The notes under the pieces were generated by a model. That model was not told the origin of the DNA, made no database searches, and saw nothing but the letters and a program-made list of their open reading frames with translations. Below are positions 28,990 through 41,590 of a stretch of 64,000 nt of DNA, piece after piece; the first letter of the stretch is position 1, and each line of letters starts with the position of its first letter. The position numbers were made by a program, and so were the translations under genes. Origin of the DNA: an uncultured Thermococci archaeon (GTDB lineage: Archaea; Methanobacteriota_B; Thermococci; Methanofastidiosales; B48-G16); NCBI GenBank assembly GCA_964595645.1, contig CAZQQT010000005.1:32001-96000 (forward strand), written 5' to 3'.

Positions 28990-31386
28990 ATGAATATTTC
29001 TGAATCTACGATTCAGAGAGTAAAGAGGTCATGCAAAAATCTAGCCATATCTCTGATCTTACTGTTTTTTCTTATATCCTTCCTTGGTATCGCAAATGGT
29101 TCAAGAGTTCTCAGAGTTGGACTGTATGAGAATGAACCCAAAATATTTACACAAAACGGAAAGGCTGTAGGATTCTGGCCTGATATCATCCAATATATCG
29201 CTTCCAAAGAGGGGTGGAAAATAGAGTGGGTCCCTGGGACATGGAGGGAATGCCAAGAAAGACTGGAGGCCGGTGAAATAGATATAATGCCAGATGTCGG
29301 ATACACAGAAGAACGAAGTAGAAAATACGCCTTTCAAAATGAGACTGTGTTTATCAGTTGGTCACGAGTCTATGTACCGACAGGATCAAAAATCCAGTCA
29401 TTACCCGATTTAAAAGGTAAAAAGATAGCAGTTCTCAAGAAAAGCGTCAACTATGTAGGAAAAGACGGAATAAAAGAATTAACTGAGAAATTTGGAATTG
29501 AATGTGTATTTGTCGAGTTAGATAATTACATCAGCGTTTTTGAAGTGGTAGAAGCAGAAAAGGTAGGTGCAGGGGTTGTCAACAAAGAGTTTGGTAATAG
29601 ACATGAGCGAAACTATCAAGTTGAAAGAACAGGGATTGTGTTCCAACCCAGTGACCTCAAATTTGCCTTTCCGAAGGATGCCCCCCTGACACCTCACTTA
29701 ATCGAACGCATCGATTACCATATAATCGAGTTAAAGGAGGACAAGGATTCGATCTACTACCAGTCAATGGAACGATATTTTGAGATGGCCATCCCGAGAG
29801 AGCCAGTTGCTCCAGGATGGACGAAGTGGGTGCTGATAGGTATTGTCGCGGTCGTTGCCCTGCTCGCCGGAGGAAATTTTATTTTGAGTCGTCGAGTTGA
29901 ATCCAGAACGAAGGAGCTTCGTGAAAGCGAGGAAAAGTATCGTCGGCTGGCGGAAAATGTTGCCGACGTACTTCTTCAAATAGATCTTGACGGGAATTTT
30001 ACGTACATGAGTAAGAATTTAGAAGAAATCACAGGATACACTCGTGATGAAGTTGAGGGAATGAATATTAAAAATTTTCTTTCCACTAAATCATACGAGA
30101 GAGCTGTCGAGCGAATAAAAAAGTGGAAAGAAGGAGCGGAGAGGTTACCCCCCTACGAAGTAGAGGTAATGACGAAGGACGGTGGAAAGGTGCCCTTCGA
30201 ATTAAACACTTCACCTGTGTTTGAAGACGGCAACCTCACCACCATACAAATAGTGGCAAGAAATATCACCGAACGAAAAAAGGCCGAGTACGAGTTGAAA
30301 AAGAGTGAAGAGAACTACCGCCAGCTCGTCGAGGCGTTGAATGAGGGCATCTGGAGGATAGACGCCGAAGGGTACACCACCTTCGTCAACCCTAAAATGG
30401 CGGAGATGCTCGGGTATACCGTGAAGGAAATGGAGGGAAAGCATCTTTTTGCGTTCATAGACGACGAATGGGTGGAAAAAGCGAAGAAAAATTTGAAAAA
30501 ACGCCGACAGGGAGTAGCGGAGCAGCACGAGTTCATGTTCAGAAAGAAAGATGGAGAGCCAGCATACATGCTGGTGAATACCTCTCCCGTTTTTGATGAC
30601 GGGGGAAGGTATGTCGGAGCCTTGGCGGGTATCACCGATATCACTGAACGCCAAAAAGCAGAAGAACAGCGGGAGGAAGCACGAGAGGAAGCGGAGTTCT
30701 ATGCAGATGTCCTCGCCCACGACATGGGCAACCTCAACCAGATCATGCTCGGATACCTCTATCTTCTCAGAGAGGCAGAAGAGAGAGAAACCATAGAGAA
30801 GAATATAGAATGTGTAAAAAAAACGATTATGGAGGCAAAACGACTGGCAGAGAATATCCAGATGCTAAAAAGAATCAAAGAAACATCTGTAGAGAGGACA
30901 AGCCTTGGCGATGCACTAGAGCGATCCATCGAACGACTGTATAAGTATTTCGATCGAGAAATCGAGATCAATATTACGTTAGATGAGCATTACGTGAATG
31001 CTAACGTCTTCCTCGATGAGGCACTCTTCAGTGTTCTTGAGAATGCGGTGGAGTACACGTTCCACGAACCAGTCACAATCGATATTTTTATCGAGGAGAG
31101 GGACGGTATATGTGACGTGCACATCCGTGACTACGGCATCGGCATCTCGGAACAAAAACGAAAAGACATCCTTGAAAATCTTGAGACACTCTCAAAACGG
31201 ACGGGGATGGGACTCTACCTGACAAAAAGAATTATCGAGAGTTACGGTGGCTCACTGGATATTGAGAAAAAAGAAACCGGCACTGAGGTCGTGCTCAGTA
31301 TCCCTGAGGCGGATACGGAAGATTCGGAAAAGGATGCCCCCCCTCAGCGTGCTGATAAACACCGTAGACAAGGGGGCGATGAGTAA
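28990..31386 (+). CDS. Sensor histidine kinase (extracellular SBP family 3 domain, TM, 2 PAS, HATPase)
   Basis: H-box LAHDMGN, N-box LENA, DYGIG, GMGL; two PAS/PAC repeats. Confidence 0.93.
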   Translation: MNISESTIQRVKRSCKNLAISLILLFFLISFLGIANGSRVLRVGLYENEPKIFTQNGKAVGFWPDIIQYIASKEGWKIEWVPGTWRECQERLEAGEIDIMPDVGYTEERSRKYAFQNETVFISWSRVYVPTGSKIQSLPDLKGKKIAVLKKSVNYVGKDGIKELTEKFGIECVFVELDNYISVFEVVEAEKVGAGVVNKEFGNRHERNYQVERTGIVFQPSDLKFAFPKDAPLTPHLIERIDYHIIELKEDKDSIYYQSMERYFEMAIPREPVAPGWTKWVLIGIVAVVALLAGGNFILSRRVESRTKELRESEEKYRRLAENVADVLLQIDLDGNFTYMSKNLEEITGYTRDEVEGMNIKNFLSTKSYERAVERIKKWKEGAERLPPYEVEVMTKDGGKVPFELNTSPVFEDGNLTTIQIVARNITERKKAEYELKKSEENYRQLVEALNEGIWRIDAEGYTTFVNPKMAEMLGYTVKEMEGKHLFAFIDDEWVEKAKKNLKKRRQGVAEQHEFMFRKKDGEPAYMLVNTSPVFDDGGRYVGALAGITDITERQKAEEQREEAREEAEFYADVLAHDMGNLNQIMLGYLYLLREAEERETIEKNIECVKKTIMEAKRLAENIQMLKRIKETSVERTSLGDALERSIERLYKYFDREIEINITLDEHYVNANVFLDEALFSVLENAVEYTFHEPVTIDIFIEERDGICDVHIRDYGIGISEQKRKDILENLETLSKRTGMGLYLTKRIIESYGGSLDIEKKETGTEVVLSIPEADTEDSEKDAPPQRADKHRRQGGDE

Positions 31387-31751
31387 TGAAGATCCTCGTT
31401 ATCGACGATGAAAAGGTGGTCCTCACTCTTTTCAAGGATATTCTCGAATCTGTGGGTCATGAGGTGCAGATCGCCATTGACGGAGAGATTGGAATCGCGC
31501 TAGTGAAGGAGGCACTAGAAAACGGAGACGCATTCGATCTTGTGGTTATGGACTACCGGATGCATGGGATGGATGGAATGGAAGTCTCCGAGGAGATCTG
31601 GGTCATGGATGATGATACCCCCATCATGTTCGCCAGTGCCGATCCCACCATCAAAAAAGAGGCACTGCATAAAGGGGCCGTGAGCTTCCTCCACAAATCT
31701 TTCAATCTCGACAAGCTTGTGGATGAAGTAGAAAGAATAATGAGGAAATAA
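31386..31751 (+). CDS. Single-domain response regulator
   Basis: IDDE, MDYRMHGMDG, conserved Lys (HKSF). Confidence 0.93.
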   Translation: MKILVIDDEKVVLTLFKDILESVGHEVQIAIDGEIGIALVKEALENGDAFDLVVMDYRMHGMDGMEVSEEIWVMDDDTPIMFASADPTIKKEALHKGAVSFLHKSFNLDKLVDEVERIMRK

Positions 31752-32166: not shown

Positions 32167-32251
32167 TGCGGAGGAAGGGATTTGAACCCTCGAACTCCTA
32201 CGAGACAGGACCCTGAATCCTGCACCTTTGGCCATGCTCGGTAACCTCCGC
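32167..32251 (-). tRNA. tRNA-Leu(CAG)
   Basis: GCGGAGG acceptor, CAGGA-TTCAGGG-TCCTG anticodon arm, long variable arm, GGTTCAAATCC. Confidence 0.95.
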
Positions 32252-32790: not shown

Positions 32791-32862
32791 TGCGGCTGCC
32801 GGGATTCGAACCCGGGTCGTGGGCTTGGAAGGCCCAAGTGCTAGCCGCTACACTACAGCCGC
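32791..32862 (-). tRNA. tRNA-Gly(UCC)
   Basis: GCGGCTG acceptor, TGGGC-CTTCCAA-GCCCA anticodon arm, GGTTCGAATCC. Confidence 0.95.
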
Positions 32863-32970
32863 TCTACCGTTTTTCCCCATGCCACTATTTAAATTTTACG
32901 ATTTTGTCCAAAAGAATAAAAAAGATTAAGTTTATATAGTAGTTTATCAGTGAAGTAGTAGGTGAGTCCG

Positions 32971-33312
32971 ATGATAGACAGACTGGTAGCAGATTTAAAG
33001 AAAATTGATGGAATAAAACATGTAGGAGTCATTGAAGGAGACAATCCTGTTGTGTCCGATATGCCCGAAGAAGAAGGTGAACTCCTGGCTAACACGATAA
33101 CAGAGATCTATGATGTGTCTGAGGAGACAGCTGACTCGACAGATATGGGTCAACTGGAGCAGATCCTTATCAGCGGATTTGAGGGAAAAATGGTCATTGC
33201 GAAAAGCGAAGAGTATCTTATCGGTGCAATTACCGAGACAAAAGTTAATTTGGGACTGGTACGGCTTAAACTTAGAAGCATACTTCGAGAATTAAAAGGT
33301 GAGAAAGAATGA
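32971..33312 (+). CDS. Roadblock/LC7 domain protein
   Basis: About 113 aa; GQLEQILISGFEGKM, KVNLGLVRL. Confidence 0.85.
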   Translation: MIDRLVADLKKIDGIKHVGVIEGDNPVVSDMPEEEGELLANTITEIYDVSEETADSTDMGQLEQILISGFEGKMVIAKSEEYLIGAITETKVNLGLVRLKLRSILRELKGEKE

Positions 33313-33659
33313 TAATAGAAAAAGTGCTCGGAAAGTTAAAGGAGGAAAATGATGGAGTACTTGGCAGCAGTGTGATAGAGAAGGGTGGCTTTTTAGTGGC
33401 CATGGACGCACCTGCCGATCTAGGCATAGAAAAAAGTAGTGCAATGGCTGCTTCTGTGTTCAACAGACTCATGAGAAACGTAGAATCTTCAAAAGTTGGT
33501 GCAATCGATTATATTTTAATGGAAGGAAAAGAAGGGGATATGCTCGTTGTGGATGTGGGAAATGTCTACCTTTTTGTCAGGACGAAAAAGAACGCCACAA
33601 TTGCAAAAATAATGGAAGATGCAAAGGACGTTGGAAAGAAAATTGAAGCACTTATTTGA
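33309..33659 (+). CDS. Roadblock/LC7 domain protein
   Basis: [32 protein letters not shown]. Confidence 0.85.
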
Positions 33660-33673
33660 GGAGGATAGTGTAT

Positions 33674-34447
33674 ATGGGACAATCTATTGTTGTATCATCG
33701 GGAAAAGGTGGAACAGGAAAAACAACGATATGTGCGAATTTAGGGATAGCACTGGCTCAAAGAGGAAAGTCGGTGACGATCCTGGATGCTGATATTGATA
33801 TGGCCAATTTGGAACTTATGCTCGGTCTGGAGGGCATGCCTGTCACACTCCATGAGGTACTCTCCGGTGAGGCAGAGCCGGAAGAGGCAATATATGATGG
33901 TCCAGAGGGCGTGAGGATACTCCCTGCGGGGCTCTCACTGAGTGGTGTGCAGAAAGCAGATCCACGAAAACTTGAGAATGTGCTCAAGAAGCTTATAGGG
34001 GTCTCTGATTATCTCCTGATAGATGGAGCTCCTGGACTGGAAGTGGATGCGGTGACTGCCATTGCAGCAGCCCAGAATTTACTCCTCGTAGTAAATCCTG
34101 AGATAACATCCATGAGTGATGCACTAAAAACGAAAATCGTTGCTGAGAAGTTGGGGACACACATTATTGGTGTGGTACTCAATAGGGTAGGTTTTGATAT
34201 GACAGAGCTTTCAAAAGAAGAAGTAGAAACTATACTGGAAACAGAGGTAGTGGCTGTGGTTCCAGAGGACCCGGAGGTGAAAAGAGCAGCAGCCTTTGGA
34301 GAGCCACTTGTGACACGAAATCCAAACTCTTCGGCAACGATAGCGGTGAAAAAACTTGCAGCCGATCTTCTTGGTGAGAAGTATATTCCACCGTCCCCTG
34401 AAAATCCTCTTAAACGAATCTTCAAAGCACTCTTTGGAAGTGATTAG
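33674..34447 (+). CDS. minD: MinD-family ATPase with C-terminal amphipathic membrane-targeting helix
   Basis: [44 protein letters not shown]. Confidence 0.93.
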
Positions 34448-34449
34448 TA

Positions 34450-34653
34450 ATGCCTTTGATGGACATACTGGCAGCAAATGTCGAAATTTTATTTGTAGCA
34501 ACAGTGTTAAGTGTAATACTTAATATTATTTTAGCGTTGAAAGTCTCCTCATTACGATCGGAAGTGTCAAGATTGAAGGGAGGATCACTTACAAGAGAAG
34601 AACTCGAACTTCTCAAATCGCGGTTAACACGACTCAAAAAGCTTACGAGATGA
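34450..34653 (+). CDS. Small single-pass membrane protein with basic coiled-coil tail
   Basis: N-terminal TM, LTREELELLKSRLTRLKK; translationally coupled on both sides. Confidence 0.7.
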   Translation: MPLMDILAANVEILFVATVLSVILNIILALKVSSLRSEVSRLKGGSLTREELELLKSRLTRLKKLTR

Positions 34654-37600
34654 TGGGATTGACACGGTTGACAAGAAAAATCTATGTATTGTTGTTAGTC
34701 TTGATTATAGTATTTCCATACTCTGTGGAAGCGGTGGTGCAGGAAGATGGAAAAATAGAAGGGACAGTATCTGATGAGTTCGGTGATCCGATAGAGGGTG
34801 CTACTGTGGTCGCCTGTTGCTACATGAAACGGTACACTACAACGACGAATGCCGATGGAGAGTATACCTTTGAGGATGTGGCGTACGATACTGCAGGAAC
34901 GAAATACAGAGTAGAGGCGTATAGGGAAGCTACAGACGAAGAAAAGGGATACGAGAAAAATACAAAATCTACAGAATTAAAGAGCCCGCCAGATAATCAA
35001 AAAACGATTGATATTTCTTTAACAGAGCTCACAGAATCGAGAGCCAAGTATAAAGAACTTTATACATTATGGATGGAAGTAGGTGATCTTCGTGCGGTAG
35101 GTGAGTACACTATTGTTCTTTTTGATATTAGCAAACGAAGTTGGGAACATGCAGAAACAAGAATGTTCCCCGAAAAGGTTTATTTCCGTGTTTTTCGAGA
35201 GGGAAATTTTATTGATGAGTATATTCTCGATCTCTGCGATAACACGGTGATTATTCAGGAGGTCCTCAAGGTTGAGATGCTGAGCATTGAGGACAGAAAC
35301 TCTGATGGCGAGTATGAGGTGGAGCTTCGAATCTCCTCGAGAGAGCGTCCTTCCATCTCTTTGAGCATATTCAAACTCTACGAGAATGTGGCAATCAAGG
35401 AGAAAACGGTGAGTGTCAATGCCACAACAACAAGCGTTGAAATCGATGGAGAAGAGTTTAAAGCAGAAGTGACAGGAAATAGTTTCACAATAGATGTGAA
35501 CAAAAATGAGATCCTCGATCCTTACGAGACGTTTACTCCTGGTGACTCATTCTCAACAATTTCAGGCCCGTGCATCTCCACACGCTCGTACCGAATTGTC
35601 ACCATTTCTGGAAACACAGTAACTTTAAAACCGGAGATTCGAGAGTTAATGAATCCCGATGATTTCGATTTGAATGAGATGCAGACAACGACTCCCATTT
35701 CTGGGGAGGAATTTTACATGTACGCGGTGGTTGAAAATGTAGGGAACTACGATGCTACGGATGTGGTGGTGAGTGTCGATCATACCAATTATACACTTCT
35801 CAATTACTGTGATATCGCCAGTGATCATATTCCTATAGGGGGCATGGGTACAAAGGAAGGAGAAAATAAAAGCAAGGTCGTCCTCCTCCGATTAAGAGCT
35901 CCTACTGTTCCCTACGAAGAGTATCATCCAATTACCATCGGTGCGAACTACAAAATGGTGTATACGAGTGAGGAAGGAGATGTGGTAGAAGAGAAGTTCC
36001 AGAAGGAGTTCAAACAGGATGTCAATGTCTATCCAAAAACGGTCCAGCTCAAAATTGATCAGTTTGTCGCATTTAAGAAGCTTCTTCTCGGTGAGGAGAG
36101 CGATATCTCCATTACTGTAGAGAACGTTGGGGATATCACAGCATACGATCTTGAGATCACGTCATACCTCCCCGCTGGTCTCGAGTTGATCGAAGGAGAC
36201 GCCACACAAACAATCGAGGAGCTTTCGCCGGGAGACAGTACGCAGTTTTCGTACAGGGTAAAGGCGAAGGAGCTGGGAGATTACGATCTGATCACCAAGG
36301 TGCGGTACAAGGATGCGCGGGGAGAACAGTATGAAAAACAGTCGTTTCCAGTGCCATTTACCGTATATAAGGAATTTCCTCGGTTAGAGTTGAAGAAAAA
36401 TATCGATAAAACAAAGATTTTGGTGAATGAACATATTATTGTCGTGCTCGTGATCACGAACACAGGGAATAAACCGGCCAAGGATATTGTCCTAGTCGAT
36501 TCTATTCCCAAGAGCTTTTCGCTTGTGAGCAGCAAAGAAGAAGAAATTACAGGAAATGTGAACGTCTTTAAAATCGACCGGATGGAACCGAACGAGAAAA
36601 GAGTGTTTAGCTACGTGATCAAAGCGGACGAACCGGGTAAGTACACATTAAAAGGCTGTAAGGTGAAGTACGCTGATTACGAGGACAACCATTTCGAGTA
36701 CGAGGCGCCGGATGTGAATATCGATGTCAGTGGTATCCCAACCCTCGACCTGAGCTACGCTCTCTCCAGAGAGAGTGTACAGGATGGTGAGTTGCTGACT
36801 GTGATAAGCACGGTGAGGAATAAGGGGAACGGCCTCGCAGAAAATATCACGATCGACAATGTGTTTAACAAGGGAGAACTCGTCAATGGAGATCTCACGA
36901 AGGAGATAGCCGCCCTCAAACCGGGGGAATACCAAAGATATAAATTCACTGTGCGCGTGCCGGTCTCAAGTACGAAATACGATTTTGTGATCGACGCAAC
37001 CTACAGCTACGAGGACATTCTCGGCAATACGTATCCCAAAGACAAGAAATCAGTTCAGTTTGTTCAGACAATCGCTGCAGAAAAACCAAAAATCGATATA
37101 GCGCGGAGTGTCGAGAAAATGATCATCAAGAGCAATAAGTACTACGTGGACGCGGGATACTCCTTTATCGTTCGTATTTCAGCGGTGAACACCGGTTCGG
37201 CCGATGCGGTGGATCTCGTGCTCGAAGAATCACTTCCTTCTGGATTTGAGGTCATCGATGGGACAAACAGCTGGGAGGGTGATCTGAAGGTAGGGGAGTC
37301 AAAGACCCTCACCTATACAGCCATTGGACATGTGGGCGGCGCCTATACACTGACACCTCGGGCATCGTATAAGGACAAATGGGACGTATCGTACGCTGCT
37401 ACGGGGAAATCACTGCAGTTTACGCTTCGAGGATTGGACATCACAAAAAATGTGAGTAAAGAAGAGGTGGCAGAAGGAGACACGCTGAGCGTGACAATCA
37501 CGGTGCGAAATTACGGTAATGCTGAGATGAGTGACATTGTGATCGAGGACGCGGTACCCGAGGGATTTGAGATTGTAGAAGGAGAGACAACAGTACAAAA

Positions 37601-38348
37601 GGACCTTTTGGAAGGCGGAGCTTCAATGAGGCTCACATACACACTCAAGGCCGTATCTTCGGGAGAGTACACGATGGAGAAGGCACGAGTGCGATGGAAA
37701 AATCCCTATGGGGAATCACGACAGCTCGAGTCGACGACGTATGCGGTCACAGTTCAGAAACCCACACCGCCCCCAACTACCACGCCCGCACCGACGACGA
37801 CAGCCCCACCCAGTGTTGTGGAGCGATTTGGATCGACACTTCTCTGGATTCTTGTGGCTGTGCTGTTACTTCTCATAGGAATTATTGGAGGGCGTGCATA
37901 CCTCCGACGACGATCTGAGATGGAGGAAGAGGAGGTGTTTGGAGAGCTCGAAATCTCTGAAGAGGAACTATCTGAAGAGGAACTTCCAGAAGAAGAAACA
38001 CCCGGAGGGGAGCTCCCAGAGGGAGTATTTTTTGGAGAGGAAGAATCAGAGGAAGAAAAAACCCCACAGGAGCTTTTTGAAGAACTTTCTGTACCTGAAG
38101 AAGAGATGTACGAAGAAGAGGAAGAACAAGAGAGTGCAAGTGACGTTGCACCGGATTCCATCAAGAAAATTCTTGACTGGCAGGACCGAGAGGAGAAGAA
38201 ACGGAGAAAAAAGAAGGAACCGAAAGAGAAGGATGAAAAAAAGGAAAAGCAGTGGTTCGATCGCGATTACGAAGTGACCGATGATATGTCCCCGAGGGAA
38301 GTCTTAAAAGGAAAAAAGAAGGAAAAGGACAACGATGAAGATACTTAA
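34650..38348 (+). CDS. Large cell-surface protein (carboxypeptidase-regulatory-like domain, multiple DUF11/BatD-type Ig domains, P/T linker, TM, acidic tail)
   Basis: Signal peptide; repeated V.N.G...A.D....D.LP.GF units; PTPPPTTTPAPTTT; TM followed by RRR; about 140-aa Glu-rich then Lys-rich tail. Confidence 0.85.
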   Translation: MMGLTRLTRKIYVLLLVLIIVFPYSVEAVVQEDGKIEGTVSDEFGDPIEGATVVACCYMKRYTTTTNADGEYTFEDVAYDTAGTKYRVEAYREATDEEKGYEKNTKSTELKSPPDNQKTIDISLTELTESRAKYKELYTLWMEVGDLRAVGEYTIVLFDISKRSWEHAETRMFPEKVYFRVFREGNFIDEYILDLCDNTVIIQEVLKVEMLSIEDRNSDGEYEVELRISSRERPSISLSIFKLYENVAIKEKTVSVNATTTSVEIDGEEFKAEVTGNSFTIDVNKNEILDPYETFTPGDSFSTISGPCISTRSYRIVTISGNTVTLKPEIRELMNPDDFDLNEMQTTTPISGEEFYMYAVVENVGNYDATDVVVSVDHTNYTLLNYCDIASDHIPIGGMGTKEGENKSKVVLLRLRAPTVPYEEYHPITIGANYKMVYTSEEGDVVEEKFQKEFKQDVNVYPKTVQLKIDQFVAFKKLLLGEESDISITVENVGDITAYDLEITSYLPAGLELIEGDATQTIEELSPGDSTQFSYRVKAKELGDYDLITKVRYKDARGEQYEKQSFPVPFTVYKEFPRLELKKNIDKTKILVNEHIIVVLVITNTGNKPAKDIVLVDSIPKSFSLVSSKEEEITGNVNVFKIDRMEPNEKRVFSYVIKADEPGKYTLKGCKVKYADYEDNHFEYEAPDVNIDVSGIPTLDLSYALSRESVQDGELLTVISTVRNKGNGLAENITIDNVFNKGELVNGDLTKEIAALKPGEYQRYKFTVRVPVSSTKYDFVIDATYSYEDILGNTYPKDKKSVQFVQTIAAEKPKIDIARSVEKMIIKSNKYYVDAGYSFIVRISAVNTGSADAVDLVLEESLPSGFEVIDGTNSWEGDLKVGESKTLTYTAIGHVGGAYTLTPRASYKDKWDVSYAATGKSLQFTLRGLDITKNVSKEEVAEGDTLSVTITVRNYGNAEMSDIVIEDAVPEGFEIVEGETTVQKDLLEGGASMRLTYTLKAVSSGEYTMEKARVRWKNPYGESRQLESTTYAVTVQKPTPPPTTTPAPTTTAPPSVVERFGSTLLWILVAVLLLLIGIIGGRAYLRRRSEMEEEEVFGELEISEEELSEEELPEEETPGGELPEGVFFGEEESEEEKTPQELFEELSVPEEEMYEEEEEQESASDVAPDSIKKILDWQDREEKKRRKKKEPKEKDEKKEKQWFDRDYEVTDDMSPREVLKGKKKEKDNDEDT

Positions 38349-39378
38349 GAAGGATATGAACAAGGGATTCATAAAGATTCGCGTGGACTCGTTGGACGAT
38401 CTCTGGCATCTCACCCACGTGATTGAGGAGGGCGACGATCTCGAAGGAAAGACGTTCAGGCGGGAGGAACAGCAAACAGACAAAATTAGAGATGAACGTC
38501 TTGAAAAAAAATCGGTTTATCTTAAAGTCCGTGCAGAAAAGATAGAGTTCCATAAAAACACGAATAGACTTCGGGTAACCGGTGTGATAGAGGAGGGGGA
38601 GGATGTGGGACGGTACCATACATTCAATATTGAGGAAGGAACTGTTATTGGGATCACGAAACAGTGGAAGGATCACCATCTTGAGCGGATGCACGAGGCT
38701 GTGGAAAGTGCACATGCACCTCGGATCCTCATTCTCGCGATGGACTCCGGCGATGCTACCTTCGGGCTTGTGAGAGGCTATGGTATCGATTTTCTAGGAG
38801 ATGTGAGTGAGAACGTTCCTGGTAAGTACTACTCGGTGACACGAGAAAAGGAACAGCAGCAGTTTTTTAAGGAGACCGCCGAGAAAATCGTCAGACTTCT
38901 CGATACGCACGACGTGGAGAAAGTGGTCATTGCTGGTCCTGGATTTACCAAACAGGAGTTCACCACCTACCTTCGGGAGGAGTATCCGCAGCTTGACGGA
39001 ACATATGTACTGCGGAAAGCGTCGACAGCTGGAAGAACAGGAGTGTATGAAGTAGTGAGACGAGGCGATCTGGAGGATGTGTACAAAGAGTCACGGGTAT
39101 CACGAGAGCTCGTCCTCGTGGAACAGATGTGCCAGAAGATACTGACGGACGAGGCGGTGTATGGTACGGAGACGGTGGAGAAGGCATTAACCTATGGGGC
39201 CGTTGACACACTGCTTATTCTCGACAAGCTCATGCGAGACGAACGGTACGAGGAATTGATGAAACAAGCTCGAAGTCAGAACGCAGAAGTCTACGTAATC
39301 AGCAGTGAGCATGAAGGCGGCGAGAAACTGGAGGGACTTGGAGGAATCGCTGGTCTTCTCCGGTTTAAAATCGGGTAA
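38335..39378 (+). CDS. pelA: mRNA surveillance protein Pelota
   Basis: DDLWHL, LRVTG, YHT, AGPGFTK, GGIAGLLRF. Confidence 0.96.
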   Translation: MKILKKDMNKGFIKIRVDSLDDLWHLTHVIEEGDDLEGKTFRREEQQTDKIRDERLEKKSVYLKVRAEKIEFHKNTNRLRVTGVIEEGEDVGRYHTFNIEEGTVIGITKQWKDHHLERMHEAVESAHAPRILILAMDSGDATFGLVRGYGIDFLGDVSENVPGKYYSVTREKEQQQFFKETAEKIVRLLDTHDVEKVVIAGPGFTKQEFTTYLREEYPQLDGTYVLRKASTAGRTGVYEVVRRGDLEDVYKESRVSRELVLVEQMCQKILTDEAVYGTETVEKALTYGAVDTLLILDKLMRDERYEELMKQARSQNAEVYVISSEHEGGEKLEGLGGIAGLLRFKIG

Positions 39379-41145
39379 TCACAGTTTTCGAAGGAACTGG
39401 ATCAAACTTCTCTCAGTGGTGAGATAGTACTTCTGTTCTCTGATGAGGATGGATGGAAGAGAACGAATTTTCGATGGCAGCATCGCGCGTGTTTTCTCAT
39501 AGTCTCGGGGTTTGAAGTTTATCGTCCCGTTGGACACATAACTCAGAAGCGCAAATATGGTCAGTGCCTTGTTGCAGTACTTTGAGTCTTTCTCCACTAC
39601 TATTTCGACCTCGAGAGGAGACATAGACAGTTTCTGATCCAGGATGTACCGTCTATCGTAGTACTCTATTTTTGGATCTCCATACGCAATAAATACCGCA
39701 CTTTTTGTACAGGAGGCGATGATTTCCGAGAAATCAGGATAATCTATGAGTTTTTCTATCCTGAATCCTGTTTCTCCTGTGAATTCCATGCCACAGTTCT
39801 TTATTTTGCAGTATCTGCACTTTTCGAGGTCAAATACGAGATCGAGTGTATTTCCCATCGCTATCTCTTCTCGAAGACCTTCGAGGATTCCTTCTTCTGT
39901 GAGTTCTCCAGTGAAAATTCTATTGTTGATTATGAGTGTGGGTTCCAGGAACTCTGAGTCTTCGAGAGGGATGAATGTAATATTAAGGAATTTTTGAAGT
40001 TCAGTGAGTATGGGTGGAATCTCATCTTCAAGATGGTAGAACCGGATGATCAGTTTTCTCGCCTCTGGAGAGAGATCGTAATACCCGATTTCATCTCCGC
40101 TCCTGTACACGCCTGACGGTGTGTACGGTCTCAATGGCGTTTCGTCAACAACCGTCTCTTTTTTTTCCGCTCCAGGTTCTTCAACACACCTTTCTTCGAA
40201 TGATTTTGTCGGGTACACAAACTCAATGGCGTTGTTGCGACACACTTCCACGCACTCCCCACAGAGTGTACAGTCCGTGCTCCGTTCACTTTGCACTGGA
40301 TCGATTCCCATAGGGCACGCGTCGGCGCACATACCGCAGCCATCACACTTCTCCATATCGACATGAAGTTTGAGGAGGCTTACCTTGTTGAAGATTCCTA
40401 CCCAGGCACCAAGAGGGCAGAGGGATCGGCACCAGAATCGGGAGATTACGAGGATAATGCCCATCAGAAAGATGAAAAATACGATTCTTCCGATAAAAAG
40501 TGTGTCGACAACCATTCCATGCTGGATTCTGTACGGTACGGCGGCTTCGATGAATCCTGCTGGACATATTTTACAGAAGAGCGTGTCCGCAAAATACCAC
40601 GCGGCGACAACTGTTGCTGCAAGCACGACAAATTTCGTGAACCGTAATCTGTGGGGTGTAGTGATCTTTCGATTGAAGATCTTGTCCATGCCGTCCTGAA
40701 GGAGTCCAAAGGGACATGCCCAGCTGCAGAAGGCGCGTCCTATCGCCACAAAAAAGACCGTGGTGTAGCCGATGAGGTAGTACGGTACCTTCCCGAGGAT
40801 GACGAAGTTTTGGATAGTACCGATAGGACAGGCTGTGGATGCGAGGGGGCATGCGTAACAGTGGAGAAATGGAGCGCAGAGCATCTTGAATACAATACCC
40901 AGCCCGCCGAGGCTCACTATTACGACGGAGATGAGCTGTGCGATTCTCCTCTTCTTCAGTGTGTTCTCACGCATAAAGAAGATACCCATACCAATGAGCA
41001 CAAAACCAATCAACAGCACAAAAAAGTCTATCTCTGTGACTGCAGGATCTCCAACGTATCCCACTTGCATATTCACAATTGAAAAAAGCGTGATCACACT
41101 ACCAACGGCAAGTAGCATCTTTTCCGTTATCTCCCCTTCACGCAT
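39379..41145 (-). CDS. Membrane polyferredoxin (NapH/MauN-like) with extended C-terminus
   Basis: CYACP, FCSWACPFG, FCKICP, WCRSLCPLG, two ferredoxin motifs, plus about 270 extra C-terminal residues. Confidence 0.85.
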   Translation of the reverse strand: MREGEITEKMLLAVGSVITLFSIVNMQVGYVGDPAVTEIDFFVLLIGFVLIGMGIFFMRENTLKKRRIAQLISVVIVSLGGLGIVFKMLCAPFLHCYACPLASTACPIGTIQNFVILGKVPYYLIGYTTVFFVAIGRAFCSWACPFGLLQDGMDKIFNRKITTPHRLRFTKFVVLAATVVAAWYFADTLFCKICPAGFIEAAVPYRIQHGMVVDTLFIGRIVFFIFLMGIILVISRFWCRSLCPLGAWVGIFNKVSLLKLHVDMEKCDGCGMCADACPMGIDPVQSERSTDCTLCGECVEVCRNNAIEFVYPTKSFEERCVEEPGAEKKETVVDETPLRPYTPSGVYRSGDEIGYYDLSPEARKLIIRFYHLEDEIPPILTELQKFLNITFIPLEDSEFLEPTLIINNRIFTGELTEEGILEGLREEIAMGNTLDLVFDLEKCRYCKIKNCGMEFTGETGFRIEKLIDYPDFSEIIASCTKSAVFIAYGDPKIEYYDRRYILDQKLSMSPLEVEIVVEKDSKYCNKALTIFALLSYVSNGTINFKPRDYEKTRAMLPSKIRSLPSILIREQKYYLTTERSLIQFLRKL

Positions 41146-41590
41146 TTTCTATAGCCTCCAGAATCCTGCTATCAAGTTTAAAGGCGCCAGAAAGTCTCGT
41201 TGCTTCCTCGCCATTGATCAGGATGATGGTGACGGGTAGGCCGTTGCGATCGATACCGTACTCCTCAAATGTCTCGGGGTGCTCCTCGTACTCGATCACG
41301 GTGTACTCTATCGATGCTGAAGCACCGGCTATCTCTTTCACGGTTTTGATGGCATCTGGACAGGATTTGCACCACTCTGCGGAAAATACGATAAGTTTCA
41401 CGGCACGATCGATTTTCTCTATACCCCCTGTATCTTCAATGCTAGTCTGATATGAGGAAGAGGTGAGTCCAAGGCAGGAAAGACAGATATACGTGGCGAT
41501 ATTTTCGGTGTCCACATGTTGTTTGAGACTTACACCGTAGCTTAGTACCACGATCCCGATTATCAGTACAGCTATCCCTTCCTTCTGCAT
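41138..41590 (-). CDS. Membrane-anchored thioredoxin-family protein with an extra N-terminal CxxC
   Basis: TM, ICLSCLGL, WCKSC, GLP cis-Pro loop. Confidence 0.85.
   Translation of the reverse strand: MQKEGIAVLIIGIVVLSYGVSLKQHVDTENIATYICLSCLGLTSSSYQTSIEDTGGIEKIDRAVKLIVFSAEWCKSCPDAIKTVKEIAGASASIEYTVIEYEEHPETFEEYGIDRNGLPVTIILINGEEATRLSGAFKLDSRILEAIENA

What the first reader, a model, noticed from the sequence alone, without database searches (positions are those of the whole stretch)
32971..39378. Roadblock-Roadblock-MinD-small TM protein-giant surface protein operon: candidate cell-surface positioning/polarity system
Seen: six tightly coupled genes with overlaps or gaps of 14 nt or less. They are two divergent Roadblock/LC7 paralogs, a MinD with an intact deviant Walker A and amphipathic C-terminal helix ([11 protein letters not shown]), a 67-aa single-pass protein with a basic coiled-coil tail, a 1232-aa Ig-repeat surface protein with a very acidic cytoplasmic tail, and pelota. 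No MinC, MinE or small GTPase lies in the window. Established: Roadblock dimers regulate P-loop NTPases (MglB is the GAP for MglA; LAMTOR regulates Rag GTPases), and MinD/ParA ATPases position cargo on membranes. Inference: the Roadblock heterodimer replaces MinE as the activator, and the small TM protein and acidic tail link MinD to an adhesin or S-layer-like cargo.
Basis: partly seen in the sequence, partly recalled or inferred. Interest (0 to 1): 0.75.

Follow-up and report, generated by a model that had tools for sequence, protein, structure and literature searches.

The report
Archaeal MinD operon with uncharacterised partners
An uncultured archaeon encodes a membrane-binding MinD positioning ATPase in one tight operon with two Roadblock-fold proteins, a tiny membrane protein and a giant surface protein, and comparison with relatives shows that the tiny membrane protein and a Roadblock protein are recurrent, unstudied companions of archaeal MinD.

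Summary
In detail: six co-directional genes with overlaps or gaps of at most 14 nt encode two Roadblock-like proteins, an archaeal MinD (TIGR01969, 344 bits), a 67-aa single-pass protein, a 1232-aa DUF11/CARDB surface protein and pelota.

Neighbourhoods split this into layers. A small membrane protein directly follows MinD in 29 of 29 readable loci of four families of the window's class and in 14 of 20 loci of a second phylum, against 7 of 1030 genes as background. It belongs to an unannotated family of about 194 clusters. A Roadblock gene lies within 4.5 kb of MinD in five different gene orders across three phyla, but not in the sister family or the Thermococcus-like family. The giant protein is kept in two families and carries a conserved C-terminal KGKK motif. 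Pelota is a passenger.

Linkage is shown; who activates MinD, and what it positions, is not. The idea that Roadblock replaces MinE is only partly supported. This scan noted MinD-Roadblock-DUF2226 cassettes before on other DNA. My searches of the held papers found no description of it.

The parts
32931..32938 (+). TATA-box-like TTTATATA in the 99-nt gap between tRNA-Gly (- strand, 32791-32862) and RB1; candidate operon promoter
   Evidence: Sequence read; the tRNA boundary comes. Promoter function is inferred and not tested.
32971..33312 (+). RB1, a Roadblock/LC7-fold protein (113 aa from ATG 32971; the ORF opens at GTG 32962)
   Evidence: Pfam Robl_LC7 E 4.7e-5, 23.5 bits, cut-off 23. Family profile A2 hits the solved Roadblock 7yh1_D at 6.6e-13 and MglB at only 0.39-0.64. 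It groups with MinD-linked Roadblocks of other lineages in a quick tree with weak support.
33309..33659 (+). RB2, a divergent Roadblock-like paralogue (116 aa); its start overlaps the RB1 stop by 4 nt
   Evidence: Pfam Robl_LC7 20.8 bits, below the cut-off of 23. Profile A3 hits 7f8m_A at 1.3e-3. hhalign to the RB1 family gives 86.8%. The RB1 profile hits RB2 at 5.6e-7. Close matches (78-91% identity) were found only in the 5 genomes of the window's family.
33674..34447 (+). Archaeal-type MinD ATPase (257 aa from ATG 33674; the ORF opens at TTG 33656)
   Evidence: TIGR01969 minD_arch 344.1 bits, cut-off 201.75. The best solved relative is 1hyq_A (MinD-1), 285 bits. There are three minD_arch paralogues in the genome.
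33698..33727 (+). Deviant Walker A box [10 protein letters not shown] of MinD
   Evidence: Most of its positions are invariant in alignment A1 of 8 archaeal MinDs.
34406..34438 (+). C-terminal amphipathic helix [11 protein letters not shown] of MinD, a candidate membrane-targeting sequence
   Evidence: Hydrophobic moment up to 0.77. Similar C-terminal ends occur in most of the archaeal MinD ORFs listed.
34450..34653 (+). TM67, a 67-aa bitopic protein, member of an unannotated small-protein family encoded directly after archaeal minD
   Evidence: No Pfam or NCBIfam family above cut-off. Alignment A4 of 19 members. The profile finds 194 cluster representatives at E<=1e-3 and 63 at <=1e-10, nearly all 40-90 aa.
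34480..34536 (+). Transmembrane helix of TM67 (aa 11-29); predicted N-terminus outside, tail inside
   Evidence: Hydropathy and flank charges were computed. The N-flank net charge is <=0 in 19 of 19 family members. The 15 residues after the helix are net positive in 14 of 19.
34585..34650 (+). Conserved cytoplasmic helix of TM67 (aa 46-67) with the family motif T-x-EEL-x-x-L
   Evidence: It is the best-conserved block of alignment A4 across three phyla.
34650..38348 (+). GIANT, a 1232-aa C-terminally anchored surface protein
   Evidence: Pfam DUF11, CARDB, BatD and CarboxypepD_reg. One hydrophobic stretch at aa 1060-1081. Homologues follow MinD-TM in the window, in 3 of 3 f1 contigs that reach that far, and in 14 of 16 f2 loci; the other two f2 loci end at a contig edge.
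36048..37754 (+). Beta-sandwich repeat region of GIANT (aa 467-1035)
   Evidence: The best stretches of CARDB (467-553) and of DUF11, TRAP_beta and BatD (929-1035) bound this region. Pfam reports 4 DUF11 and 3 CARDB stretches. These families overlap, so the counts are not additive.
37827..37892 (+). C-terminal membrane anchor of GIANT (aa 1060-1081), preceded by a Pro/Thr-rich linker (aa ~1040-1058)
   Evidence: Translation; hydrophobic-stretch scan.
37893..38345 (+). Cytoplasmic tail of GIANT (151 aa; 58 D/E, 27 K/R)
   Evidence: The acidic character is not kept in f2, where the tail is 460 aa with 98 K/R and 77 D/E.
38148..38171 (+). Tail motif 1, APDSIKKI
   Evidence: Kept in the congener. 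A similar IP[AS]SI[KR]ELL lies at the matching place in f2 tails. It is unique among 4715 ORFs of at least 80 aa in the genome.
38289..38321 (+). Tail motif 2, SPREVLKGKKK, close to the C-terminus
   Evidence: The pattern [KR]E[VIL][IL]KGKK occurs once in 2 of 2 complete f1 proteins and twice in 14 of 14 complete f2 proteins, although the rest of the tail is unalignable. It is unique in the genome.
38335..39378 (+). Pelota (mRNA surveillance factor); probably a passenger gene of the transcription unit
   Evidence: TIGR00111, 301.9 bits. It overlaps GIANT by 14 nt in the window and in G001. No pelota match was found in 16 f2 loci.

Best explanation
This is a lineage-specific build of a widespread but unstudied euryarchaeal MinD module.

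Shown:
- MinD here has all the sequence features of an ATP-dependent, membrane-binding ParA/MinD switch.
- A 60-80-aa bitopic protein with a conserved cytoplasmic helix is its most constant genomic companion.
- A Roadblock-fold protein is a second, recurrent companion.
- In this family and its sister family, a giant C-terminally anchored surface protein with two conserved short motifs in its cytoplasmic tail is encoded right behind them.

Inferred mechanism:
- ATP-bound MinD dimers sit on the membrane through their own amphipathic helix.
- The cytoplasmic helix of the small TM protein binds MinD at the membrane. It acts either as the ATPase-stimulating partner (the job MinE or ParB does elsewhere) or as an anchor.
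- RB1 and RB2 form a Roadblock heterodimer that tunes or recruits MinD.
- The giant protein is the cargo or landmark. Its C-terminal basic KGKK peptide is the likeliest handle, so that the placement or clustering of this surface protein is set from inside the cell.
- Pelota merely shares the transcript.
For: Gene order and coupling.

MinD identity and motifs.

A small TM protein follows MinD directly in these loci:
- f1: the window plus 4 of 4 relatives whose contig continues.
- f2: 16 of 16.
- f3: 3 of 3.
- f5: 5 of 5.
- A Halobacteriota-phylum sample: 14 of 20.
- Background in this genome: 7 of 1030 genes.
These proteins align as one family of about 194 representative clusters.

A Roadblock gene lies within 4.5 kb of MinD in these loci:
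- f1: 6 of 6.
- f3: 3 of 3.
- Halobacteriota sample: 6 of 20 at E<1e-4, plus one weak hit.
- Methanobacteriota sample: 20 of 20.
Five gene orders were seen: RB-RB-MinD-TM; MinD-TM-RB; RB, DUF2226/RB, DUF2226, X, MinD, TM; a divergent RB pair; and RB divergent from DUF1611-SepF-DUF2226-MinD.

RB1 sits with the MinD-linked Roadblocks and not with the V4R-linked Roadblock of its own genome.

MinD-TM-GIANT is kept across two families whose MinDs are only 53-55% identical. The KGKK motif is kept in 16 of 16 complete tails and is unique in the genome.

No MinE or MinC in the genome.

In print, archaeal MinD4 positions motility machinery rather than the divisome (abstract and passages of the Nussbaum 2020 preprint). 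H. volcanii MinD2 has a co-transcribed downstream protein predicted by AlphaFold 3 to bind it (PMC11588486, section 9).
Against: - No interaction, localisation or ATPase datum exists for any of these proteins, and no complex model could be made.
- Kin are not independent. The 20 of 20 in Methanobacteriota is largely one inherited arrangement, and there the Roadblock gene is on the opposite strand, 2.5-3.3 kb away.
- The TM partner was found in 0 of 20 Methanobacteriota loci and, with the profile, in only 2 of 31 genomes of the haloarchaeal class.
- Roadblock is missing near MinD in f2 and f5.
- GIANT is missing in f3, f5 and the other phyla sampled. In f2 it is separated from the TM gene by about 160 nt, which could hold its own promoter.
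- The RB2 Pfam score is below the cut-off.
- Both trees are quick trees with weak deep support.
- In H. volcanii, deleting the gene downstream of minD2 gave no phenotype.
Confidence: 0.55

Rival explanations
1. The RB1/RB2 heterodimer is the MinE replacement: it is the ATPase activator that drives MinD off the membrane. The TM protein and the tail serve only as linkers to the cargo.
For: - Roadblock dimers regulate P-loop NTPases (established knowledge for MglB and LAMTOR). The RB1 profile reaches LAMTOR2 and MglB only weakly.
- The Roadblock-MinD neighbourhood recurs in five gene orders.
- There is no MinE in the genome.
- None of the Ras/Arf-like genes lies next to a Roadblock gene.
Against: - MinD and its TM partner persist without any nearby Roadblock in f2 (0 of 16) and f5 (0 of 5).
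- With RB2 as query, only 1 of 7 f5 genomes gave even a weak match anywhere.
- Known Roadblock regulators act on small GTPases, not on MinD/ParA ATPases (recalled).
- Known MinD/ParA activators are short basic peptides (recalled). That description fits the TM67 tail or the GIANT KGKK peptide better.
Confidence: 0.2
2. MinD, the TM protein and the Roadblocks form a module that acts on something else, such as type IV pili, cell shape or another envelope machine. The giant surface protein is only a neighbour that entered the operon in the ancestor of f1 and f2.
For: - GIANT is absent from MinD loci of f3, f5 and the two other phyla sampled.
- The genome has two T2SSE-type pilus ATPases and no archaellin above the cut-off.
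- Makarova et al. 2016 (passages read) report FleN/MinD (arCOG00589) and Roadblock (arCOG02603) genes in or near archaeal type IV pilus loci.
- MinD2 and MinD4 of H. volcanii affect shape and motility.
Against: - The adjacency survives across two families.
- In f1 the TM67 stop overlaps the GIANT start.
- The cytoplasmic tail keeps two short motifs while everything around them has diverged, which implies a cytoplasmic binding partner.
- No pilus genes lie in the operon.
Confidence: 0.25
3. It is a cell-division site selector, the archaeal counterpart of bacterial Min, with the small TM protein acting as a divisome component. Some automatic annotations call family members FtsL.
For: - In all four Methanobacteriota loci whose gene maps were printed, minD sits in one gene string with a SepF-like gene, which Pfam confirmed for one locus.
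- Two members of the TM family carry the IMG name 'cell division protein FtsL'.
Against: - No FtsL or other Pfam family scores above the cut-off for family members.
- Deleting all four MinDs of H. volcanii did not disturb division (abstracts and passages).
- A different GTPase-based system, DipABC, positions the divisome in FtsZ-using archaea (PMC13228585, abstract and section 5).
- No SepF was found beside any MinD paralogue here with a single-sequence search.
Confidence: 0.1

Closest known systems
Haloferax volcanii MinD4 and MinD2 (with the co-transcribed HVO_0596)
   Same: - They are archaeal MinD-family ATPases that work without MinC or MinE and act on motility machinery and cell shape, not on division.
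- MinD2 has a conserved downstream gene whose product AlphaFold 3 predicts to bind the MinD2 C-terminus. This parallels the MinD-TM67 pair.
   Different: - The TM67-family profile was found in only 2 of 31 genomes of the haloarchaeal class, so HVO_0596 is probably not a member; this was not tested on H. volcanii itself.
- No Roadblock or giant surface protein is described with MinD2 or MinD4 in the passages I read.
- The window's MinD lies in a different clade from the two haloarchaeal MinDs included in my tree.
Bacterial MinCDE system
   Same: - Deviant Walker A MinD with a C-terminal amphipathic membrane-targeting helix.
- A small partner that has a membrane-binding N-terminus followed by a helix. 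MinE has this layout (recalled), and TM67 resembles it in outline.
   Different: - No MinE or MinC homologue in the genome.
- TM67 is an integral membrane protein, not a peripheral one, and shows no sequence relation to MinE.
- The score to bacterial MinD (TIGR01968) is 149 bits against a cut-off of 213.
- A role in division is unlikely.
MglA/MglB polarity switch and LAMTOR-Rag (Roadblock regulators of small GTPases)
   Same: - Roadblock-fold proteins, probably acting as a dimer of two paralogues, are encoded next to a P-loop NTPase.
- The RB1 profile reaches LAMTOR2 (E 0.03) and MglB (E 0.4) weakly, and archaeal Roadblock structures strongly.
   Different: - The adjacent NTPase is a MinD/ParA-type ATPase, not a Ras-like GTPase.
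- None of the Ras/Arf-like genes is beside these Roadblocks.
- No such Roadblock-ATPase pairing turned up in my literature searches.
MinD-Roadblock-DUF2226 (PATAN-like) cassettes noted earlier by this scan in DPANN and other archaea
   Same: - MinD is encoded with a Roadblock-fold protein (earlier notes).
- I reproduced the association independently in Methanobacteriota and Halobacteriota samples, with Pfam confirmation of Robl_LC7 and DUF2226.
   Different: - The window has no DUF2226 gene in the operon. The genome's three DUF2226 matches lie on other contigs.
- It has a second Roadblock paralogue instead, plus the TM partner and the giant surface protein.
HubP/FimV-type polar landmarks that recruit ParA-like ATPases in Vibrio and Pseudomonas (recalled, not checked in a paper here)
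   Same: A single-pass membrane protein with a large external part and a long acidic cytoplasmic region, which could hold a ParA/MinD-type ATPase at a defined place.
   Different: - No sequence relation.
- The external part here is a DUF11/CARDB repeat protein of about 1050 aa.
- The acidic tract is not conserved in the sister family; only two short motifs are.

Membership tests
Archaeal MinD (NCBIfam TIGR01969 minD_arch) | Whole-protein score above the curated cut-off | tested here: met
   344.1 bits against a cut-off of 201.75.
Archaeal MinD (NCBIfam TIGR01969 minD_arch) | Deviant Walker A with the signature lysine, and conserved switch aspartates | tested here: met
   S15 G16 K17 G18 G19 G21 K22, D44 and D46, and D123 are invariant in A1.
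Bacterial MinCDE system | MinD of the bacterial equivalog family | tested here: not met
   TIGR01968: 149.4 bits against a cut-off of 212.9.
Bacterial MinCDE system | MinE partner present | tested here: not met
   PF03776: 0 matches at E<=0.1 in the 99.96%-complete genome.
Bacterial MinCDE system | MinC effector present | tested here: not met
   PF03775: 0 matches at E<=0.1.
Bacterial MinCDE system | C-terminal amphipathic membrane-targeting helix on MinD | tested here: met
   [11 protein letters not shown], hydrophobic moment up to 0.77. Actual membrane binding was not tested.
Roadblock/LC7 (Pfam PF03259) | Score above the gathering cut-off of 23 bits | tested here: inconclusive
   RB1 scores 23.5 bits, just over. 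RB2 scores 20.8 bits, under. Support from profiles: A2 to 7yh1_D at 6.6e-13; A3 to 7f8m_A at 1.3e-3; hhalign 86.8%. No structure model could be made.
MglA/MglB-type Roadblock-GTPase module | A Ras-like small GTPase encoded with, or shown to pair with, the Roadblock protein | tested here: not met
   Ras and Arf profile matches lie on contigs C4, C1, C3 and C10, none on the window's contig C5. Pairing in trans cannot be excluded.
MinD-Roadblock-DUF2226 cassette (earlier notes of this scan; not a published family) | MinD and a Roadblock-fold gene adjacent | tested here: met
   RB1 and RB2 lie directly upstream of MinD.
MinD-Roadblock-DUF2226 cassette (earlier notes of this scan; not a published family) | A DUF2226/PATAN-like gene in the same cluster | tested here: not met
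   The PF09987 matches of the genome are on C12, C8 and C6 only.
Archaeal S-layer protein (Methanococcus/Thermococcus type) | S_layer_C domain (PF05124) | tested here: not met
   GIANT shows no such domain. Tandem genes of about 700 aa with S_layer_C lie at C1:267-271 kb.
FtsL (name given by IMG to some TM67-family members) | Match to an FtsL/DivIC profile | tested here: not met
   No FtsL-type Pfam family was listed even at E<=5 for 5 family members.
Pelota (TIGR00111) | Score above the cut-off, and the three eRF1-like domains | tested here: met
   301.9 bits against a cut-off of 177.65; eRF1_1, eRF1_2 and eRF1_3 all found.

The most novel reading that the evidence does not exclude
Euryarchaeal MinD works with a dedicated, so far unnamed partner set. 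One partner is a membrane-anchored mini-protein that does MinE's job from within the bilayer. The other is a Roadblock-fold regulator, which would be the first case of a Roadblock platform controlling a MinD/ParA ATPase instead of a small GTPase. In this lineage the machine reads a short basic C-terminal peptide on the cytoplasmic tail of a giant adhesin. That would place a cell-surface protein from the inside, an inside-out surface-patterning system.
Probability: 0.2. Interest if true: 0.85.

Novelty: new variant of a known kind. Interest (0 to 1): 0.62.

Why it matters
Archaea have many MinD proteins but no MinC or MinE. For none of them is an ATPase-activating partner known, and only one cargo class, the motility machinery in Haloferax, has been shown.

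This locus and its relatives name three concrete candidates that can be expressed and tested:
- a small bitopic protein family, with about 194 cluster representatives and no Pfam or NCBIfam model;
- a MinD-linked Roadblock subfamily;
- in two families, a giant surface protein with a conserved cytoplasmic KGKK peptide.

Cultivable Thermococcus-like species carry the MinD-TM pair, and methanogens carry the Roadblock/DUF2226 version. Genetics is therefore possible even though the window's own organism is uncultured. If a Roadblock protein regulates a MinD-type ATPase, the known reach of this ancient regulator fold would widen beyond GTPases.

Tried and rejected
- Scan of genome contigs with the MinD alignment. 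Only L021, L022, L025 and a few other archaeal loci were useful, and no names were obtained for near relatives.
- The L022 140-aa ORF overlapping the MinD start looked Roadblock-like by eye. It has no Pfam match and no hit from my Roadblock profiles, so it is not counted.
- The word-indexed homologue search with TM67 found only itself and the congener. The full profile search was needed.
- S-layer idea for GIANT: rejected as the main reading, because S_layer_C genes lie elsewhere.
- Methanogen or ANME identity: no MCR alpha match.
- Motility cargo: no archaellin above the cut-off; there is one weak 22.5-bit match.
- The acidic tail as the conserved feature: rejected, because the f2 tails are basic.
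- KGKK as a general sorting signal: rejected, because only GIANT carries it among 4715 ORFs.
- HVO_0596 as a TM67-family member: not supported, since the profile was found in 2 of 31 genomes of that class. H. volcanii itself was not examined.
- SepF next to MinD in this genome: not found with a single methanobacterial SepF as query, a search of low sensitivity.
- The careful MinD tree did not finish in 300 s, so the quick tree was used.
- Rows dropped: MinD matches below E 1e-50 in the Halobacteriota sample or below 1e-70 in the Methanobacteriota sample were not listed. Only the 20 highest-scoring places of the first sample and 20 chosen places of the second were fetched.
- Supplementary tables were not seen, because supplements are closed. 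Those of Makarova et al. 2016 (S1, S4) and of the MinD2 paper (Table 5) may already list these neighbourhoods.
- The names Thermococcus and Pyrococcus for family f5 are my inference from neighbouring genes and come from no tool.

Full report
**What is in the window**

Six ORFs lie head to tail on the + strand: RB1, RB2, MinD, TM67, GIANT and pelota.

- The junctions are -4, -4, +2, -4 and -14 nt.
- RB1 most likely starts at ATG 32971, behind a GGTGA box. MinD most likely starts at ATG 33674, behind GAGGAGGA.
- Upstream, the unit is bounded by tRNA-Gly on the opposite strand (32791-32862). A TTTATATA box sits in the 99-nt gap.
- Downstream, a convergent gene starts at 39379.

Family assignments are firm for three genes:
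- MinD: TIGR01969, 344 bits. The best solved relative is MinD-1, 1hyq, at 285 bits.
- Pelota: TIGR00111, 302 bits.
- GIANT: DUF11/CARDB repeats and an N-terminal CarboxypepD_reg domain.

They are weaker for the two Roadblocks:
- RB1 scores 23.5 bits and RB2 20.8 bits against a cut-off of 23.
- A profile of the RB1 family hits the solved archaeal Roadblock protein 7yh1_D at 6.6e-13.
- The RB2 profile hits 7f8m_A at 1.3e-3.
- The two profiles align at 86.8% probability.

I accept both as Roadblock-fold proteins.

**The genome**

- The window lies in a 1.97-Mb, 14-contig, 99.96%-complete assembly.
- It has three minD_arch paralogues.
- It has three Roadblock matches, two of them in this operon. 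The third sits beside a V4R protein on contig C11.
- It has no MinE and no MinC, and no MCR alpha.
- No archaellin scores above the cut-off. There are two T2SSE ATPases.
- Tandem S_layer_C genes lie on C1.
- Three DUF2226 matches lie on other contigs.
- Ras- and Arf-like matches lie on C4, C1, C3 and C10, none beside a Roadblock gene.

**Neighbourhoods in the window's own class**

| Family | What was found |
|---|---|
| f1 (own family, 5 relatives) | All keep RB1-RB2-MinD. TM67 follows in the 4 whose contig continues. A GIANT homologue follows in the 3 that reach further. Pelota follows only in the congener. |
| f2 (sister family) | MinD-TM in 16 of 16 loci. GIANT in 14 of 16; the other two end at a contig edge. 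No Roadblock profile hit (0 of 16). No pelota (0 of 16). |
| f2, one complete genome | Its Roadblock genes lie elsewhere. One lies directly next to a 162-aa gene that I did not scan, at the place where the window genome's C11 Roadblock has its V4R neighbour. |
| f3 | MinD-TM-Roadblock in 3 of 3 loci. The Roadblock scores Pfam 1.2e-9. |
| f4 | No MinD at the threshold used (0 of 7 genomes). |
| f5 (88 species, many complete 2-Mb genomes) | MinD-TM in 5 of 5 loci looked at. No Roadblock. I take f5 to be Thermococcus and Pyrococcus; that is my inference from neighbouring genes, and no tool named it. |

A quick MinD tree puts the window's MinD with f2, f5 and three loci of another phylum. The f3 MinD groups with the window genome's second paralogue. 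The TM and Roadblock companions therefore occur in both MinD clades.

**Neighbourhoods in two other phyla**

Halobacteriota-phylum sample:
- 46 genomes were sampled and 23 had a match at E<=1e-50. I fetched the 20 best-scoring places.
- A 59-72-aa ORF with an N-terminal TM helix follows MinD directly in 14 of 20 loci.
- A Roadblock profile hit lies within 4.5 kb in 6 of 20 at E<1e-4, plus one weak hit.
- The gene orders differ. One is MinD, TM, Roadblock, DUF2226. One is Roadblock, a DUF2226-Roadblock fusion, DUF2226, an unknown gene, MinD, TM. One has a divergent Roadblock pair.

Methanobacteriota-phylum sample:
- 41 genomes were sampled and 29 had a match at E<=1e-70. I fetched 20 places.
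- All 20 have a Roadblock gene 2.5-3.3 kb from minD. Pfam gives 8.1e-20 for the one I scanned.
- In the four loci whose gene maps were printed, it lies on the other strand, divergent from a DUF1611, SepF-like, DUF2226, MinD gene string. Pfam confirmed these families for one locus.
- None has the small TM gene.

These 20 loci are kin and largely share one inherited arrangement. The weight of the evidence lies in the number of different arrangements, not in the counts.

**The small membrane protein**

- Nineteen of these ORFs align as one family. Each has a short N-terminus, one TM helix, and a cytoplasmic helix with a T-x-EEL-x-x-L core.
- The N-flank is never net positive (19 of 19). The segment after the helix is net positive in 14 of 19. 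The tail should therefore face the cytoplasm, where MinD is.
- The profile finds 194 cluster representatives at E<=1e-3 among 1.84 billion proteins. Sixty-three are at <=1e-10, and nearly all are 40-90 aa.
- Sources call them hypothetical, or in two cases 'cell division protein FtsL'.
- No Pfam or NCBIfam model reaches its cut-off. There is a weak sub-threshold hit to DUF5798.
- As background, 7 of 1030 genes of at least 150 aa on six contigs of this genome have such an ORF directly downstream.
- This is the most constant companion of MinD in my data. I rate it the best candidate for a direct partner. That it acts like MinE is inference.

**The giant protein**

- Its layout is: signal-like N-terminus, CarboxypepD_reg domain, an unassigned stretch, DUF11/CARDB repeats, a Pro/Thr linker, one TM helix, and a 151-aa cytoplasmic tail.
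- The tail is acidic here. In f2 it is 460 aa and net basic.
- Two short motifs are kept. One is a P-x-S-I-K/R block.
- The other lies close to the C-terminus: [KR]E[VIL][IL]KGKK. It occurs once in 2 of 2 complete f1 proteins and twice in 14 of 14 complete f2 proteins.
- Both motifs are unique among 4715 ORFs of the genome.
- Conserved short motifs in an otherwise free-running cytoplasmic tail point to a cytoplasmic binding partner. That the partner is MinD, or its companions, rests only on gene order.
- Basic peptides are the usual activators of ParA/MinD ATPases (recalled knowledge). I therefore propose the KGKK peptide as the handle.

**Literature**

- Makarova et al. 2016 (PMC4858521; passages read) note two things. 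[quoted passage not shown] Roadblock genes of arCOG02603 occur in type IV pilus loci. Their supplementary tables, which I could not open, may list more.
- The MinD2 paper (PMC11588486; section 9 read) describes a co-transcribed downstream protein, HVO_0596. It has an AlphaFold 3 interface to MinD2 (ipTM 0.83) and no deletion phenotype.
- The MinD4 preprint (passages) names no operon partner.
- A 2026 preprint (PMC13228585; abstract and section 5) shows that a GTPase-based DipABC system, not MinD, places the divisome in FtsZ-using archaea.
- None of the following searches turned up a paper describing a MinD-Roadblock or MinD-small-TM module:
  - 'MinD, roadblock, archaea': 82 papers, of which I saw the listing of 20.
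  - 'DUF2226': 0 papers.
  - 'SepF, roadblock, archaea': 1 irrelevant paper.
  - The arCOG numbers: 6 papers.
  - 'HVO_0596': only the MinD2 paper.
- This holds for the held library only.

**Earlier notes of this scan**

- MinD-Roadblock-DUF2226/PATAN cassettes were reported before on other DNA, mostly from DPANN archaea.
- One unchecked note describes a 62-aa membrane coiled-coil protein behind an archaeal MinD. Several notes describe MinD beside giant adhesins.
- I treat these as leads. The Roadblock/DUF2226 link and the small-TM link were re-derived here from my own samples.
- New in this report:
  - the two-Roadblock, DUF2226-free build;
  - the size and reach of the TM family;
  - the conserved tail motifs of the giant protein.

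**Verdict**

The genes are functionally linked by the usual genomic criteria.
- The small TM protein, not the Roadblock pair, is the constant partner. The acidic tail is not the conserved element. Pelota is a passenger. No mechanism is shown.
- I file it as a new variant of the ParA/MinD positioning systems, of good interest to archaeal cell biology.

Noticed in passing
L120-L139 (Methanobacteriota sample), e.g. L120:871-4806: In all four loci whose gene maps were printed, minD lies in one gene string with DUF1611, a SepF-like gene and DUF2226, and a Roadblock gene diverges from that string. A Roadblock profile hit lies within 3.3 kb of minD in all 20 loci. This hints at a link between this MinD module and the FtsZ anchor SepF in methanogens.
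   Followed up: partly
G000:C11:40914-41177 (L019:7591-9691): The third Roadblock gene of the genome sits directly after a V4R-domain gene and before three small paralogous membrane proteins of about 100 aa. A Roadblock gene next to an unscanned 162-aa gene is seen in an f2 genome (L154:4021-4890).
   Followed up: partly
G000:C2:12789-13541 and G000:C1:55488-56237 (L018, L017): There are two further minD_arch paralogues. The C2 copy groups with the MinD of the f3 loci that carry TM and Roadblock genes, but has neither next to it. A weak DUF2226-like 153-aa ORF and a 351-aa coiled-coil ORF lie nearby. The C1 copy is followed by an unassigned 338-aa ORF.
   Followed up: partly
window 28990-31751: A 798-aa sensor histidine kinase with an N-terminal periplasmic-looking domain and PAS-like repeats is followed, with a 1-nt overlap, by a 121-aa CheY-like receiver. 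Histidine-kinase-like genes also lie upstream of RB1 in two relatives (L004, L005), in other orientations.
   Followed up: no
window 32167-32251 and 32791-32862 (- strand): tRNA-Leu(CAG) and tRNA-Gly(UCC) separate the kinase pair from the MinD operon.
   Followed up: yes
window 39379-41145 (- strand): A 588-aa membrane protein with many Cys-x-x-Cys motifs (ferredoxin-like), followed by a 150-aa thioredoxin-like membrane protein (41138-41590), converges on pelota.
   Followed up: no
G000:C1:267146-271603: Two tandem genes of about 700 aa with S_layer_C domains are the likeliest S-layer proteins of this organism.
   Followed up: no
G000:C8:56204-57307 and C8:62768-63103: A weak archaellin-like match (22.5 bits) in a 603-aa ORF lies next to an S_layer_C-like gene, with a DUF2226 gene 5 kb away. 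This may be a pilus or surface-structure locus.
   Followed up: no
L025:731-7962: In an uncultured small-genome archaeon, a 1918-aa secreted-looking protein and a 150-aa membrane protein precede MinD, and a 56-aa TM protein follows it. This is another pairing of MinD with a giant surface protein.
   Followed up: no
P0007, P0157 (members of the TM67 family): IMG names these archaeal 63-72-aa proteins 'cell division protein FtsL', although no FtsL-type Pfam model matches them.
   Followed up: yes
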